Source of the DNA: Mobula hypostoma
Taxonomy: Eukaryota
Reading direction: 5' to 3'
Length of the DNA: 64,000 nt
Assembly (NCBI RefSeq): GCF_963921235.1
Contig: NC_086108.1
Coordinates: 18,042,001-18,106,000 of the forward strand
Part shown: piece after piece, positions 1-29,709 of the stretch
How positions within the stretch are numbered: position 1 is the stretch's first letter
Layout of the letters: every line of letters begins with the position of its first letter
Position numbers and translations under genes: made by a program
The notes under the pieces: generated by a model
Told to the model about the DNA's origin: nothing
Database searches by the model: none
What the model saw: only the letters and a program-made list of their open reading frames with translations

Positions 1-307
1 GCAGGCTGAACATCAACAAGTTCTTGTATGATCTTAGTAGAGATAATGGGAAATTCATGACTGTCACATTCAAAGGCCTCTGTGGGACATGTGTGCACAT
101 GTATGCATGTTTGTAAATCCTTAGTGTGTTTGTATAATTGTGTGCCAGTGCATGCATATGCTTCCATGTATGTGCAAGTGAGTACATTCATTGCAGATGT
201 AGCTATTGAGTTTATTGTCATGTGTCATATAGTGAGGTACAAGTATCATTACAAACTAACCTTGCTTGCAGCAGCATCACAGGCAGTTTCAGACAACCAC
301 AAAATAT

Positions 308-866
308 GTTCGTCCATCGTCGACATCGATGAAGACCTTGACACCATTATTGATGGTGTCGAGACTAGCGCTTGATTTGGATTTAAGTGAGGGAGAGTTG
401 CACAGCATCAGCCTCACTCTCTCTTCCCAATTCCCATCTGGGTCCAGTGGCAAGACAGAGTCAAGACAGCTGGAGATGGGACTAGGCGCAGTGGATGACC
501 AGGATGTCTTCTGTGTCTTGTCCTGCTCTACACGTTCCACGACGCCTGCAGAGACCGCCTTCTTGACCGTTGGACCTTCCATTGGTCTCGTCCGCTCAAT
601 CCGCCGGAGCCTTCTTCACATGCTGGGATAGACAACTCCCTATCTCACCGAGGGTTTGAGACCTGTCGGCTACCCTCACCTGGTTTAGCCGGCTTGTCGA
701 AGCCGTTGCCCGGGGTGTGGCCGCTGTCACATGTAAACAGCTACGGGGAGCCACAGGTGAGAGCTGAGTGCCAGGTGGGGACCAAAGGTGGACTAACCGC
801 CTTGAAAAGGACGCGGCATGTTACCCCACCAGAGGTGCTACCCCTCCCTGACACCGCATACACCCC
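308..866 (-). mobile_element. Non-autonomous, non-coding RTE-like retroelement (559 bp)
   Basis: GC-rich block flanked by a perfect 12-bp direct repeat ACCACAAAATAT (296-307, 867-878). The minus-strand 5' end folds as an HDV-like ribozyme and the 3' end has the hairpin GACACCAT-CAATA-ATGGTGTC. No RT ORF. RTE assignment is by resemblance to RTE 5' UTRs. Confidence 0.75.
675..866 (-). ncRNA. HDV-like self-cleaving ribozyme (predicted)
   Basis: Minus strand: P1 GGGGTGT(866-860)/ACACCCC(718-712); P2 CTCACCTG(761-754)/CAGGTGAG(682-675); P3 GGC/GCC; L3 starting TCC with GG after P1 for P1.1; P4 CGGCTT-CGAC-AAGCCG; J4/2 GCTAA with candidate catalytic C at 688. Confidence 0.75.
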
Positions 867-925
867 ACCACAAAATATAAATTATATGTGATTTATACAA
901 AAGAGTGAAGACAAATAAGGTTAAG

Positions 926-4544: not shown

Positions 4545-4972
4545 TGGTAAAGATAACTATAGATAGGTATGGTCCTCATGGGAGAGTTTTAAATTGAGAA
4601 TAGGGCAAATTATGAGGGCATTAAGCAAGAACTAAGAAGCGTTAATTGGGAACATCTTTTTGTCTGGCAAGTCCACATCAGACATGTGGAGTGTGTTTAA
4701 AGATCAATTGCACAGAGTACAGGAAAGGTATGTTCCTGTTAGAAGAAACAACAGGGATGGAAAGGTAAGAGAACCCTTGATGTCCAGAGAGGCAATGAAT
4801 TTAGTCAAGAAGGAAAAGGAAAAGTATGTAAAGCTTCGGAAGTTAGGATCGAACGAAGCACATGAGGAGAATAAACAAGCCAGAAAATAAGTAAAGAAGA
4901 GAATTAGGAAAGCCAAGAGAGGCCATGAAGTGTCCTTGGCAAGTAGGAATTAAGGTGAATCCTAAAGCATTA
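4545..4972 (+). mobile_element. CR1 ORF2 fragment (endonuclease-RT linker)
   Basis: Translation GKSTSDMWSVFKDQL...YVPVR...EPLMSRE is homologous to ORF2 at 14440-14720. Confidence 0.8.
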
Positions 4973-24210: not shown

Positions 24211-24652
24211 AGTTGAGTCTCTTCAAACTTAATATCATTTAATAGAGCTGGCAATTATGCTGTTCAGTGGTTAACTGATCTGGTGATCTATCAGTAGGGC
24301 CATGTACTGCCCTGGTTATTCCTCAATGGAACAATTTTCTGGTGAGTGAAATCATTCAACTGATTACTGGTCAAATGGATGCTGGAAATATTTATTAATC
24401 TTGATTTTGGACTGAATTAACTTGCATTGGCCTGATTAATTTTGGGGAAATTGACCTGATTATTGGTAGCTGGAAACATTGATTCTCTTTTAATAATCAG
24501 TGTAATCATGAGTCACATTGATCAGATTAAGCAATTATTGATCTAATTATTATTCAATTGATTCATTCATCAATTTCAGCATTATAACGGTAAATGTTTA
24601 TCAATGATTGTTGATGAGTCCTGAGTTGGCTTGACTGGAAGCTGGCTGTGTT

Positions 24653-25924
24653 TTGGAACCTGTTGAGGGAAAGAGAGTGGGGAAGGAACGGAAATTGCTG
24701 GGAGGGGGTCGTGTGGGTCTGGTAATGGTGGACAAGATAAGAGGTGGGGTTGAGGGAAAGAAAGTGGAGAAGGAGAGGGATAGAGACTTGGGACCAGAGG
24801 TAGGCAGCTGGAGAGAGGTGGATTATTGTGAAGGGAGAAATAAAGGGAATGAGGAGGTAGTGAGGGGTTGGATGAATAAAAACCAAGACAAAGGGAATAA
24901 AAGAATAAGAAATGATAGTGGAGAAAGCTCTGAAAGTGAGGAAGATGAACAAGCTCAGAGAGGAGGTGTTGTCATAATTAGGTTTAATGAGAAGGCTCAG
25001 GGACATATGAAGAAAATTAACCCGTTTGTGCTAACAACAACTCTGACAAATAAGATAGGAGAAATAGTATTTGCAAAAGTCCTTAATGATGGCAACTTAC
25101 TGGTAAGATGTGCGAATGAGGAACAACTTGAGAAAGCACTCAAGCTAAAAGAGATAGGAAAATGCAAGGTGGAATACACTGGGAGGGTGGGAGCACAAAA
25201 CAGTGGTTGTAAAGGAGTGATTACGGGGATACCAATGAGTATAAATATGGAGGAGATAAAGAGGAATATCAAAGGAGGGAAAGTAATGAATGTTCAAAGA
25301 CTGAAAACAACAAAGGAGGGAGTGAAAAAGGAAAGTGAATCTGTATTGATTGATTTTGAAGAAGAAAGAGTGCCAAGGAAGGTGTTCCTGGGTTTCATGA
25401 GTTACCCAGTAAGGGTGTATGTGCCAAAGCCATTGAGGTGCTATAATTGTCAAAGGTTTGGACACGTGGCTAAAAACTGTAAAAGGCAGAGGAGATGTGC
25501 TAGATGTGGGGGTGATCATGAATATGGAAAGTGCAGAACAGGAGTTCAACCAAAATGCTGCAATTGTGGAGGAGCTCATAATGTTGCATATAGTGGGTGT
25601 GAGGTTGTGAGACGGGAGACTAAAATTCAAGAAATAAGAGTGAAAAGAAAGATCACTTATGCAGAAGGTGTAAGAATATCAAGAGAACAGAATAATGTTC
25701 CTAATGAACAGGGAGCAATAGGGATACGAGAGATGCAACAAAGAACAAATGACAGGATTTATGTAGACAAAAGGGCTCTAGTAACATTCATTGCAGGAGT
25801 GATTAATAGTACTGCTGAGGTAAAGTCAAAAAGTGACAAAATTCAGCTGGTGGTAAAAGCAGCAGTTAAACCATTTAGGGTTAGTAGGACTGACATGGGA
25901 GGAAGTGAGGGAGAACCTCAGTAA
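24653..25924 (+). CDS. LINE ORF1 gag-like protein with three zinc knuckles
   Basis: 423-codon ORF with CYNCQRFGHVAKNC, CARCGGDHEYGKC and CCNCGGAHNVAYSGC. The true start is uncertain, and a frameshift near the C-terminus is possible. Confidence 0.88.
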   Translation: MEPVEGKRVGKERKLLGGGRVGLVMVDKIRGGVEGKKVEKERDRDLGPEVGSWREVDYCEGRNKGNEEVVRGWMNKNQDKGNKRIRNDSGESSESEEDEQAQRGGVVIIRFNEKAQGHMKKINPFVLTTTLTNKIGEIVFAKVLNDGNLLVRCANEEQLEKALKLKEIGKCKVEYTGRVGAQNSGCKGVITGIPMSINMEEIKRNIKGGKVMNVQRLKTTKEGVKKESESVLIDFEEERVPRKVFLGFMSYPVRVYVPKPLRCYNCQRFGHVAKNCKRQRRCARCGGDHEYGKCRTGVQPKCCNCGGAHNVAYSGCEVVRRETKIQEIRVKRKITYAEGVRISREQNNVPNEQGAIGIREMQQRTNDRIYVDKRALVTFIAGVINSTAEVKSKSDKIQLVVKAAVKPFRVSRTDMGGSEGEPQ

Positions 25925-25966
25925 TCAGTCAAGCGAGGAAGTGTCTTGAGTTGGTTAATACTAATT

Positions 25967-28900
25967 ATGGTGATTCTTTTACAATGGAATGCAAGGAGCT
26001 TACTGGCCAATAGCCAGGAATTCAAGCACTTTATTAAAGAAATGGTTGTAAAACCGGATGTAGTGTGTATTCAGGAAACTTGGTTGAAACCAACTTTAGA
26101 CTTTGTGGTATATGGGTATACAATGATAAGGAAAGATAGAAATCTAGGGGGAGGAGGGGGTTGTGCTATGTTAATCAAGCAAGGTATACCATATAGGGTA
26201 CTGGAAAAAGGAGATGATCAGGAATACATAGTGGTGGAAGTGTGGGAGAGAGGGGAAGGAGTGGTTATAATTAACTACTACAATCCATGTAAAAGGTTGG
26301 ATTTGGACAGCCTATTAAAGATACAAGGACAAAACAGACATAAAGTAGTGTGGTGTGCAGATTTCAATGCTCATAGCACAATATGGGGGGATCAGATTAC
26401 AGATCCAAATGGGAAGGTAATTGAAGATTTGATGGAAGAAAGGGATTTGGTGTGTATGAATGATGGTAGCGGCACAAGGATAGATATAACAACAGGAACT
26501 GAGTCAGTGTTAGATATTACGTTAGTGTCTAATACCTTGGCTGGCGTTAGGAACTGGGGAGTTTGGACTGCTTCAACAGTAGGCAGTGATCACTACCCAG
26601 TTTTGTGTTCAGTGGGTGAAAGAGTTGAGGTAAGACCAGGTGGCGGAACCCCAAAGTGGGTGTTTGAAAAAGCTGATTGGGGAAAGTTCCAGAAGTTGAG
26701 TGAAGAAGGGTTGACAAAGATTGATATTTCTGGAAATGTAGATGAATTAAACAGTCAGGTGACTTCAGCAATTATGGCAGCAGAAGGATCTATACCTAGG
26801 AGTAAAAATAGGATGAATAGAAAACTGGTACCATGGTGGACAGAGGAATGTTGTCAGGCTGTAAAAAACAGAAATAGAGCATTCAGGCTAGTTAAAAGAA
26901 CCCATAATATGCAGCATTTGGTTCAATATAAGAAAGCACAGGCAGTGGTGAGAAGAACTATACATCAAGCTAAAAGGGCAAGTTGGAGGAGTTTTTGCGA
27001 CAAGGTAGGAAGAACAACACCTGTGGGAGAGATATGGGGAATGATTAAGAGGATGGGAGGAGATAGAAGGGAATGGGAATATCCAGTAATGATATCTGAG
27101 GAGGAAACTGCAGTCTCCAGTAGGGATAAGGCTGAGGTCATGGCCAAATCATTTGTACTGATACACAGTTCAGAAAATTTGTCTGAAGAAGGGAGAAGAA
27201 GAAGGGAAAGAATAATGAGCCAACACCCAGGTGTGTTAAGCAGGAGGGAAGGAACAGATGATATAATTGATGATCCATTTACATTAGCAGAAATGGTGAG
27301 AGCAATAAAGAGATCGAGACCAACCTCCCCAGGGAAAGATCTGATATGCTCTGTGATGCTAAAAAATCTGGGAGAAGGAGCGCTCCTGAAGTTGCTGCAT
27401 TTTTATAACAGAGTGTGGGAGGAGGGAAGATTACCAAGTGCATTACCAGTAATTCCAATAAGGAAGCTGGCAAGGATCTGTCAAAACCCACTAGCTACAG
27501 ACCAATTACATTAACATCAAGTATATGTAAGATAATGGAAAGGATGATAACAGAAAGGTTATCATATGAGCTTGAGAAAAGGGGAATGCTGGCAAGTTAT
27601 CAGAGTGGTTTTAGAAAGGGAAGGAATTCCATGGACTCAGTGATTATGTTAGAGACTGAAATAAGGAAGGCCCAGGCAAATAGAGAGTCAGTAGTGGCAG
27701 TGTTCTTTGACATTGAAAAAGCCTATGATATGATGTGGAAGGAAGGATTATTAATTAAACTGCACAAGATGGGGGTTGGTGGGAGAGTTTTTAATTGGAT
27801 TAAAGATTTTTTGTTTGGTAGAAAAATTCAAGTTCGGATTGGATCAGAATTATCAAAACAGTACATAGTGGAAAATGGCACACCTCAAGGTAGTGTGATT
27901 AGCCCATTACTTTTCATGATTATGATCAATGATGTCTTCACAAAGGTACCAGTGGATATAGGTAGGTCACTGTTTGCGGATGATGGGGCCTTGTGGAAAA
28001 GAGGCAGGAACATGGACCATATAATCAGGAAACTACAAGAAGCAATTGATGAAGTGGTGGAGTGGGGTTATGATTGGGGATGTAGATTTTCAGTAGACAA
28101 AACTCAAACTGTATTTTTTTTACCAGGAAAAGGGTCGAGGTAGGGAAGAAGTTAAGGATGTATGGGGTTGAATTAGAAAGGGTTGCATCATTTAAATTTC
28201 TGGGAGTTATATTTGATTCACAATTAACATGGGCAGACCATATCAGGAAAGTTGAGGAGAAATGTAAAAAAGTAACAAATGTGATGAGATGTTTGACTGG
28301 TAGGGAATGGGGAGCAAGTTGTTCAGCTTTGAAGAGAATGTATGTGGCTTTAGTAAGATCTGTACTGGATTATGGAAATATAGTATATGGATCAGCAGCT
28401 AGGTCTCTTATAAGGAAACTGGATGTGATTCAGGGTCAGGCCTTGAGAGTGTGCAGTGGAGCTTTTAAAACGTCACCAGTGTCAGCCCTACAGGTAGAAA
28501 TGGGAATAATCCCTTTGGAACTAAGAAGGATGCAACTGATGGCAAACTACTGGGCTAACTTGCAGGGGCACAATGATTCTCACCCTACTAAAGGAGTGTT
28601 GCAGGACTGCTGGGAAAATGGGAGGTTTCAGAGAGATACCTTTAGTCGGGTAGGGAATGATATCGCGAAAGAATGTGGAGTATTTGATCTGAGGATAAGT
28701 CCTTCAGTAGTTTATCTGGTTGTAGCTCCATGGAAGCTTGTATGGTCTGACATAGACTGGCATTTGTTAAAGGTAAAAAGGAAAGAAAGATATAAAACAG
28801 ATTTGGTAAATGCATTTAACTGTCATGTGATGGAAAAGTATAGTGATTATACTCACATTTATACGGATGGTGCGAAGGAACCTGAAACAGAAGTGACAGG

Positions 28901-29709
28901 GTTTGGGGTGGTAATACCAGCAAAAGAAATTGGAATCAGCAGAAGAACATCTAATAAGTTAGGGGTGTTTACAGTGGAGATGCTGGTGGTGTTGGTTGCG
29001 TTGCAATGGGTGCAGAAAGCCAGACAAGCCAAAGCATTGATATGTTCAGATTCATCCTCAGTTCTAGCAAGTTTAAGGTCTTTTCACACAAACAGTCGGC
29101 AAGATGTACTTTGTGAAGTCCTTCAGTTAGTTACAAGAATTGCAAATCAGGGAGGTCAGGTAAAATTTCTATGGGTTCCAGCACATGTAGGGGTGAAGGG
29201 GAATGAGAGGGTGGATGAGTTGGCAAAGAGGGCGTTAAAGAAAGAAAATGTGGAAATGCACATTAGTATCAGTAAAGCAGAGGTTAAGTGTGTAATCTGG
29301 GAAAAAGTCAACCGAATATGGCAAGAAAGATGGGACAGGGAGGGGAAAGGGAGGCATTTATATCAAATACAAAAGAATGTTGCAGTTACTAGGGTAGGTA
29401 ATGGAAACAGAAGAGAGGAAATTGTGTGGACTAGGTTAAGGCTGGGGCACTGTGCATTAAACAAAACTGAAAATGATAGGGAAACACCAGACAGGATTGT
29501 GTGAGGAATGTCAGGAAGATGAGTCAGGAGAACATGTAGTTTTGTGTTGCAGGAAGTATGGGATACAGAGAGAGATGATGAGAAATAAATTAAGGGAGTT
29601 GGGGATGCAGGAATTCACATTAAAAGGGTTGCTGGGCGTGGGTGAGAGAGCACAAGTCCGGGTATTTTTAGCGTTTTTAAGGGGTACAGGGGTTTTTCAT
29701 AGAATATGA
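25967..29709 (+). pseudogene. LINE ORF2: APE + RT + RNase H + CCHC, three frameshifts
   Basis: LQWNARS, CIQETW, DFNAH, GSDHYP; FFDIEKAYD, GTPQGSVISP, LFADD; IYTDG, SDS, WVPAHVGVKGNERVDELAK; CEECQEDESGEHVVLCC. Breaks near 27470, 28130 and 29470. Confidence 0.93.

What the first reader, a model, noticed from the sequence alone, without database searches (positions are those of the whole stretch)
308..866. Ribozyme-headed non-coding retroelement whose HDV-like cleavage site coincides with the insertion boundary
Seen: a 559-bp insert between perfect 12-bp TSDs. On the minus strand the first base after the TSD is G1 of P1 (GGGGTGT/ACACCCC), and P2, P3, P1.1, P4 and J4/2 (GCTAA, C at 688) follow in HDV order. 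It has a ~100-nt J1/2 and an unusual extra hairpin in L3 (GCTGT...ACAGC). Established: HDV-like ribozymes process the 5' ends of R2, RTE and related non-LTR elements. Inference: this is a complete SINE-like parasite with no Pol III head that cuts itself out of read-through transcripts and borrows an RTE enzyme.
Basis: partly seen in the sequence, partly recalled or inferred. Interest (0 to 1): 0.7.

Follow-up and report, generated by a model that had tools for sequence, protein, structure and literature searches.

The report
Ribozyme-headed mini RTE retrotransposon copy
This 559-base insert is one of thousands of copies of a short jumping element made from the two ends of a 4-kb RTE retrotransposon of the same genome; its first 194 bases are predicted to fold as a hepatitis-delta-type self-cutting RNA with an unusual extra hairpin, which likely cuts the element free at its first base, a known arrangement with an unusual build.

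Summary
Observation confirmed. Window 308-866 (minus strand) lies between exact 12-bp target duplications. Bases 866-673 parse as a complete HDV-like fold: G1 = 866, catalytic C = 688, 19-nt hairpin in L3; 0 of 5000 shuffles match. The family is abundant (2005 exact core matches, autonomous relatives included). 30 of 42 copies picked by their 3' end start at positions 1-3. The autonomous partner exists: a 4,099-bp single-ORF RTE (L358) matching element bases 1-516 at 93% and the last 42 at 88%. So this is a bipartite non-autonomous RTE like MAR4_MD, a known kind; ribozyme-headed deletion derivatives are known too (R2 SIDEs, NARTc). Two features were not found in the papers I could search. The L3 hairpin is kept in seven lineages, with compensatory changes from one distant lineage. 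A predicted helix between the parent's 5' UTR and 3' tail contains the deletion junction. Cleavage, read-through transcription and that helix are untested, and Ruminski 2011 could not be read. This scan has already reported the same family many times, in this genome and others.

The parts
867..878 (.). Target-site duplication, copy at the element's 5' side
   Evidence: exact 12-nt direct repeat with 296-307
296..307 (.). Target-site duplication, copy at the element's 3' side
   Evidence: family TSDs are 8-15 bp
308..866 (-). Bipartite non-autonomous RTE element, 559 bp, full length
   Evidence: 40 of 40 scored hits are near full length at 95-100%; matches both ends of the autonomous L358
673..866 (-). 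Predicted HDV-like ribozyme, 194 nt; predicted cleavage between 867 and 866
   Evidence: descriptor hit, 0/5000 shuffles; pair counts; same parse in seven lineages
860..866 (-). P1 5' strand (G1 = 866); pairs with 718-712
   Evidence: 7/7 pairs; two-sided change at pair 2 in L252; G-U at pair 1 in families E and mg2
764..859 (-). J1/2, 96 nt, predicted long P1.2 domain; it sequesters the second copy of the P1 5' strand (857-851)
   Evidence: similar predicted fold in six lineage sequences, five of them majorities
753..763 (-). P2 5' strand; pairs with 684-673
   Evidence: 11 pairs, 99% of cells paired, 3 pairs with two-sided change
722..749 (-). L3: 8 HDV-like nucleotides (P1.1 CC at 748-747, conserved G at 744), then a hairpin at 741-723 and one G
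   Evidence: 4 counted pairs 100% paired, 3 with two-sided change; present in all seven lineages
685..705 (-). P4 (705-690) and J4/2 (689-685) with the predicted catalytic C688
351..672 (-). Remainder of the RTE 5' UTR
   Evidence: 93% identity to L358 over element 1-516; by eye like RTE-11_PSi 370-529 and MAR4_MD 346-552 in the PMC5786205 supplement
337..363 (-). Junction hairpin: 5' UTR arm 363-353 and tail arm 347-337; the internal-deletion junction (about 350/349) lies in its loop
   Evidence: inverted repeat I6; the arms are about 3.6 kb apart in the parent
308..349 (-). RTE 3' tail, 42 nt, with a predicted terminal hairpin; this copy has no (AAC)n run beyond it
   Evidence: 37/42 identity to the L358 3' end; fold; (AAC)n-type tails in other copies

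Best explanation
This is a full-length copy of a non-coding element made of the first ~517 and last ~42 bases of a 4.1-kb RTE retrotransposon of the same genome, whose first 194 bases are predicted to form an HDV-like ribozyme that likely cuts the RNA at the element's first base, after which the parent's protein likely copies it into new sites. SHOWN: the boundaries, TSDs, high copy number, 5' ends at G1, absence of an ORF-bearing middle and of Pol III boxes, and a parent sharing both ends. INFERRED: (1) a host read-through transcript or a promoter upstream supplies the RNA; (2) the double pseudoknot folds, with the 96-nt J1/2 forming a P1.2 domain and the extra L3 hairpin projecting from the end of L3, and C688 catalyses cleavage 5' of G866; (3) the RTE endonuclease/reverse transcriptase binds the 3' structure (junction helix plus terminal hairpin) and primes reverse transcription at a T/A nick, giving 8-15 bp TSDs; (4) the element arose by deletion or template jump inside a helix that joins the parent's 5' UTR to its 3' tail.
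For: TSD and parse. Abundance: 5035 first-look candidates (not a copy number); 2005 exact core-pattern matches versus 1 in the reversed control (includes autonomous relatives). 5' ends: of 42 unique copies chosen by their 3' end only, 30 start at 1-3, 5 at 4-9 and 7 are truncated further. In 57 of 80 near-full copies a TSD of 8 nt or more was found, ending within -3..+2 of G1 in 48. Parent L358: 4,099 bp, starts at G1, one 1109-codon frame with endonuclease and RT domains, 93% over 1-516 and 88% over the tail; L355 and L357 also match both ends. Structure: 97.7% of cells paired over 26 pairs, 7 pairs with two-sided changes, slid controls 27-50%. Seven lineages share the parse and begin at the P1 G. 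Family A core is 98% identical while its flanks are 74-77%. Contrast: RTE family C lacks this head and has ragged, GC-rich 5' leaders. Literature: RTE elements carry 5' HDV-like ribozymes and make bipartite derivatives (PMC5786205, PMC6765202, PMC3774820).
Against: No cleavage assay and no usable RNA data. Rfam finds nothing and a canonical-L3 descriptor fails; the effect of a 20-nt L3 insertion on catalysis is unknown. All two-sided changes counted come from one lineage (three near-identical rows); P3 never varies; P1 was not in that count; two of five measures were not above shuffles (53/500 and 437/500). In family D the core (82%) is no better conserved than J1/2 (88%). A sharp 5' end is also what an internal promoter gives. 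Family C spread without this head, so it is not required for RTE mobility. The TSD search had no random control. Whether L358 itself is a working copy was not tested, and it is only 94.6% identical to the family majority.
Confidence: 0.78

Rival explanations
1. The 5' UTR holds an internal Pol II promoter that starts at G1; the HDV-like fold is kept for RNA stability or translation of the parent and cleaves little or not at all.
For: 5' pile-up alone does not separate the two. L1Tc/NARTc carry promoter and ribozyme in the same 77 nt (abstract start, PMC3383444). The L3 is atypical.
Against: The start coincides with the P1 G in seven lineages, including one with a compensatory P1 change. The catalytic C, J4/2, P1.1 and the L3 G are kept in all of them. 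In family A, 7 of 20 copies start at the second P1-strand repeat, which a register shift of P1 explains simply.
Confidence: 0.13
2. The ribozyme was functional in the ancestral RTE but the L3 insertion or later drift made it inactive; ends at G1 come from the reverse transcriptase stopping at the base of the stable P1 helix.
For: L3 is part of the catalytic core (PMC4908430, part 1). An R2 ribozyme with odd L3 spacing is described as deviating from most HDV-like ribozymes (PMC3774820).
Against: The hairpin is in every lineage found, including the autonomous parent, and shows compensatory changes, so it is old and maintained. That jewel-wasp ribozyme still cleaved up to 32%.
Confidence: 0.06
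3. The element derives from family P but was spread mainly by another RTE of this genome, such as family C.
For: Family C has a related terminal hairpin, the same kind of (AAC)n tail and many young copies.
Against: The tail matches family P at 87-91% over about 45 nt, junction-helix arm included; family C tails gave no listed match at E<=1e-3.
Confidence: 0.05

Closest known systems
Bipartite non-autonomous RTE elements: MAR4_MD (opossum), RTESINE1/2, WALLSI3, RTE-N2_Lch (Kojima 2018, PMC5786205; parts 1-3 of 5, passages and supplement passages read)
   Same: 5' end plus 3' end of an RTE, no ORF, no small-RNA head. MAR4_MD 346-552 and RTE-11_PSi 370-529 resemble the 3' half of this element in nearly the same register, and the RTE-1_PSi tail resembles its tail (by eye). 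The paper itself links retention of the 5' end to a predicted ribozyme.
   Different: In the parts read, no ribozyme structure is drawn for these elements and no 5'-3' pairing is mentioned; the paper calls the reason for RTE's bias towards bipartite derivatives unknown.
R2 SIDEs of Drosophila (PMC3414825, abstract read) and NARTc of Trypanosoma cruzi (PMC3383444, search listing only)
   Same: Internally deleted non-LTR elements that keep a 5' HDV-like ribozyme and the 3' recognition end and borrow the parent's protein.
   Different: Different clades (R2; L1Tc/Ingi); SIDEs are rare and rDNA-specific, while this family is dispersed in thousands of copies.
drz-Agam-2-1 HDV-like ribozyme (PMC4908430, part 1 of 4 read); RTE ribozymes of Ruminski 2011 (not readable, known through citing papers)
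   Same: Large structured J1/2 (P1.2) with an extended P2 (12 bp there, 11 here), a combination shown there to speed cleavage strongly.
   Different: The variable domains discussed in the part read are in J1/2; here L3 also carries a 17-20 nt hairpin.

Membership tests
Bipartite non-autonomous LINE (RTE clade) | 5' part matches the 5' end of an autonomous LINE | tested here: met
   480/518 identity to L358 from its first base
Bipartite non-autonomous LINE (RTE clade) | 3' part matches the 3' end of the same LINE | tested here: met
   37/42 identity; five more family-P tails at 87-91%
Bipartite non-autonomous LINE (RTE clade) | Coding region absent; multicopy with one junction, TSDs and microsatellite tails | tested here: met
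Bipartite non-autonomous LINE (RTE clade) | Partner belongs to the RTE clade | tested here: inconclusive
   Single frame with endonuclease + RT and no ORF1, and UTRs like Repbase RTE entries by eye. No tree against labelled RTE proteins was built; homolog names were uninformative.
SINE with Pol III head (SINE1/2/3) | tRNA, 7SL or 5S-derived head with internal Pol III boxes | tested here: not met
   no tRNA, no A or B box, no Rfam match to these RNAs
HDV-like ribozyme | P1, P1.1, P2, P3, P4 in nested double-pseudoknot order | tested here: met
HDV-like ribozyme | Catalytic C in J4/2; U-C-C start and conserved G in L3; G at position 1 (HDV numbering recalled) | tested here: met
   C688, 749-747, G744, G866; kept in all seven lineage parses
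HDV-like ribozyme | Short L3 of about 7-8 nt | tested here: not met
   L3 is 28 nt with a hairpin; the canonical descriptor and Rfam fail. Filed as a predicted variant.
HDV-like ribozyme | Mg-dependent self-cleavage 5' of G1 | not testable with these tools
   needs an in vitro assay

The most novel reading that the evidence does not exclude
RTE elements of this lineage use an undescribed subclass of active HDV-like ribozyme with a helix grafted into L3, and their RNAs are clasped by a conserved helix between the 5' UTR and the 3' tail, 3.5 kb apart, that forms part of the protein's recognition signal. Deletions and template jumps inside that helix would explain why RTE parasites and RTE-dependent SINEs keep a 5' UTR piece plus the tail, the question left open in Kojima 2018.
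Probability: 0.4. Interest if true: 0.68.

Novelty: new variant of a known kind. Interest (0 to 1): 0.42.

Why it matters
The element type is known, so the finding as first stated is not new in kind. It matters in two narrower ways. First, an L3-inserted HDV-like fold is missed by Rfam and by a canonical descriptor, so such ribozymes may be undercounted, and it tests how much the catalytic loop tolerates. Second, the predicted 5' UTR-3' tail helix offers a testable reason for the bipartite structure of RTE-dependent elements. It also bears on template design for RTE-based gene writers, which use both cognate UTRs (PMC13708176, passages).

Tried and rejected
Rfam scan: no ribozyme family. RVT_1 search returned one abundant long-ORF LINE type unrelated in its ends. 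DUF6451 loci (family chosen from recall) did not share the ends, apart from a 30-nt tail match in L120. A negative-IUPAC junction pattern returned junction variants and truncated copies, not the parent. Viral contigs: no relative. Of 107 metagenome pattern hits only 4 were relatives. Unanchored test of 5'-3' pairing (first 900 nt against last 60 nt) was mostly not significant: 65/300 shuffles for L358, 173/300 for L357, 208/300 for L188 and 7-57/300 for family C, and several best hits fell elsewhere. The T-stretch insertion signature of PMC6007223 was not clearly seen: T 0.49 at -13, 0.30-0.38 around -10. Sequencing runs: no RNA holder listed; the four runs laid are contigs and say nothing on expression or RNA ends. 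Covariation among the family's own copies: none usable, they are ~97% identical to the majority and differ mostly by scattered transitions. Ruminski 2011 is not held. Family A was considered as the partner and rejected because its tail differs.

Full report
OBSERVATION. The insert is 308-866 between exact 12-nt direct repeats at 296-307 and 867-878. Read on the minus strand, base 866 starts a 7-bp P1 whose partner is 718-712. P2, P3, P1.1, P4 and J4/2 follow in HDV order with C at 688. A descriptor that allows an L3 insertion hits G1 = 866 / C = 688 with no mismatch, plus a weaker register at 857. It does not hit with a canonical L3, anywhere in window 1001-64000, or in 5000 dinucleotide shuffles. 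I wrote the descriptor after seeing the fold, so the control shows specificity, not discovery. Rfam gives nothing relevant.

A MULTICOPY FAMILY WITH A SHARP 5' END. The genome is 3.5 Gb. The full element has 5035 first-look candidates, of which 40 were scored, all near full length at 95-100%. An exact pattern for the ribozyme's 3' core matches 2005 times against 1 in the control; this includes autonomous relatives. Forty-nine aligned copies average 97% identity to their majority. To avoid selecting for complete copies I searched with the last 93 and last 60 bases (30 loci of 40 scored each). Among 42 unique copies, self removed, 30 begin at positions 1-3, 3 at 4-7, 2 at 8-9 and 7 are truncated further. 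Of 80 near-full copies, 57 have a TSD of 8-15 nt (one mismatch allowed, no random control), and 48 of these end within -3..+2 of G1. Of 47 TSDs of 9 nt or more, 77% start with A and 77% are preceded by T. Bov-B LINE TSDs also start with A and its tails are (CAA)n (PMC13295347, one passage). Contigs of run X19, of another coded organism, show loose ends at 307 and 867, the same boundaries.

THE PARENT. Passages of the PMC5786205 supplement showed, by eye, that the 3' half resembles RTE-11_PSi, RTE-2_CPB and MAR4_MD and that the tail resembles RTE-1_PSi. A degenerate tail pattern found five loci of an RT-coding family (P) whose last ~45 nt match at 87-91%. Of 20 fetched family-P loci, L358 is full length: 4,099 bp, starting at the same G1, with a ~12-bp TSD and one 1109-codon open frame with endonuclease and RVT_1 domains. 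The window copy matches it at 480/518 over bases 1-516 and 37/42 over 518-559. L355 and L357 also match both ends, and L360 the 5' end. Closest proteins are 72-77% identical, from a frog, a turtle, a shark and a ray. The RTE assignment rests on architecture and UTR likeness, not on a labelled tree. No tRNA or Pol III box is present. The element is therefore a bipartite non-autonomous RTE.

IS THE FOLD REAL? Seven lineages give the same parse: this family, its parent P, autonomous family A, non-autonomous families D and E of the same genome, and two metagenome lineages (L252; L302/L309/L320, 4 relatives among 107 pattern hits). On a 10-row alignment, 97.7% of cells pair over 26 pairs (P1 left out because MAFFT misaligned it). 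Seven pairs change on both sides: 3 in P2, 3 in the L3 hairpin, 1 in P4. Slid controls give 27-50%. Limits: these changes come from one lineage, P3 never varies, and two measures were not above shuffles (53/500, 437/500). P1 has one further two-sided change in L252 and a G-U first pair in E and mg2. Core identity to this family exceeds the flanks in A (98 vs 77/74%), E (89 vs 81/76) and L252 (90 vs 78/74) but not D (82 vs 88/79). J1/2 is predicted to form a long P1.2 domain in all six lineages folded. With the 11-bp P2 this is the combination that speeds drz-Agam-2-1 (PMC4908430, part 1 of 4). The P1 5' strand occurs twice in tandem; the second copy is predicted to be paired in P1.2. A few copies start there (L039, L048, L011), and 7 of 20 family-A loci do, against 13 in the first repeat (selected by a 5' query). 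The window copy keeps every core pair and has lost the second register. Family C, an RTE with a 76% identical downstream UTR, lacks this head and has ragged GC-rich leaders: a natural contrast, but also proof that the head is dispensable for RTE spread.

THE JUNCTION HELIX. The junction lies in the loop of an 11-bp hairpin whose arms are about 3,575 nt apart in the parent. At the homologous positions, families A and C have different sequences that are also complementary. Mean duplex energies within families are -17.9 (P, n=1), -13.5 (A) and -10.6 (C) kcal/mol, against -4.7 to -9.7 across families. Shuffles reached the observed value in 4/1000 (P), 0-26/1000 (A, 5 copies) and 26, 31 and 174/1000 (C) (9 of 17 loci tried matched the anchors). 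The windows were chosen after I saw the pairing, and the unanchored test was mostly not significant. By eye, RTE-1_PSi and RTE-3_AMi in the Kojima supplement show 9-bp complementarity at the same places. Other derivatives of P and A keep both arms with a tRNA-SINE-like piece between them. I rate the helix plausible, not established.

MECHANISM. Shown: structure of the insertion, family, parent, ends. Inferred: transcription from upstream; folding and C688-dependent cleavage at G1; recognition of the 3' structure by the family-P protein; target-primed reverse transcription. Rivals are an internal promoter (0.13), a dead ribozyme with RT stalling (0.06) and another RTE as helper (0.05).

COMPARISON WITH WHAT IS KNOWN. 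Kojima 2018 (PMC5786205, parts 1-3 of 5) lists bipartite non-autonomous RTEs, notes that they usually keep the LINE's 5' end, and connects this to predicted ribozymes. R2 SIDEs (PMC3414825, abstract) and NARTc (listing only) are ribozyme-headed deletion derivatives. PMC6765202 and PMC3774820 (passages, one section) state that RTE elements carry 5' HDV-like ribozymes. AviRTE SINEs have bipartite tails (PMC4844689, passages). A terminal hairpin with compensatory changes is described for plant RTE tails (PMC6007223, passages). Nine literature searches listed no paper that, from titles, abstract starts and the passages read, describes a hairpin in L3 or a 5' UTR-tail helix; the nearest is unusual L3 spacing in a jewel-wasp R2 ribozyme. 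Ruminski 2011 could not be read, and Webb 2009, Webb & Luptak 2011 and Repbase entries were not seen; any of them or their supplements may already show these features. The scan's own notes, read after this analysis (one search found nothing), report the same family, hairpin, parent and helix many times; they agree but are not independent evidence.

VERDICT. Real, well supported, a known kind of element with a variant ribozyme build. Novelty: new variant of a known kind. Interest 0.42.

Noticed in passing
L371, L372, L373, L375, L379, L380, L221 (family C RTE, 5' ends): This young RTE family has no HDV-like head. Its 5' leader is a GC-rich sequence with ragged starts that looks host-derived; a stretch in L221 reads like the first exon of a host gene (OTUD5-like, from recall, not tested).
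   Followed up: partly
L227, L239 (P-derived); L392, L398, L400, L404, L406 (A-derived): Bipartite derivatives with a ~150-nt tRNA-SINE-like piece (A- and B-box-like motifs in those printed) inserted between the two arms of the 5' UTR-tail helix; ARAGORN calls no tRNA in the five tested.
   Followed up: partly
L415, L417-L419, L423, L427, L429 (family D): A second ribozyme-headed non-autonomous family of ~520 nt whose last ~160 nt differ from the RTE tails seen here; possibly a hybrid using another LINE's tail, like R2/R1 SIDEs. L422 shares its head and continues into an RTE frame.
   Followed up: partly
L411-L414, L416, L420, L421, L424-L426, L428, L430 (family E): An older (about 70-79% pairwise) ribozyme-headed non-autonomous family of ~500 nt, so at least three waves of such elements occurred in this genome.
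   Followed up: partly
L198 and L123, about 200 nt upstream of their ORFs: Another RTE-like family begins with a different sequence that by eye might be an HDV-like ribozyme; not parsed.
   Followed up: no
L191:1030-1095 and 4880-4950: A family-A copy is flanked by an unusually long (~60 bp) imperfect direct repeat.
   Followed up: no
window 24635-29504 (+): A nearly complete two-ORF LINE in several frames (gag-like CCHC ORF1, endonuclease, RT, RNase H-like end; I-group-like by recall). The rest of the window is mostly broken CR1/L2-like and GIY-YIG-type retroelement pieces.
   Followed up: no
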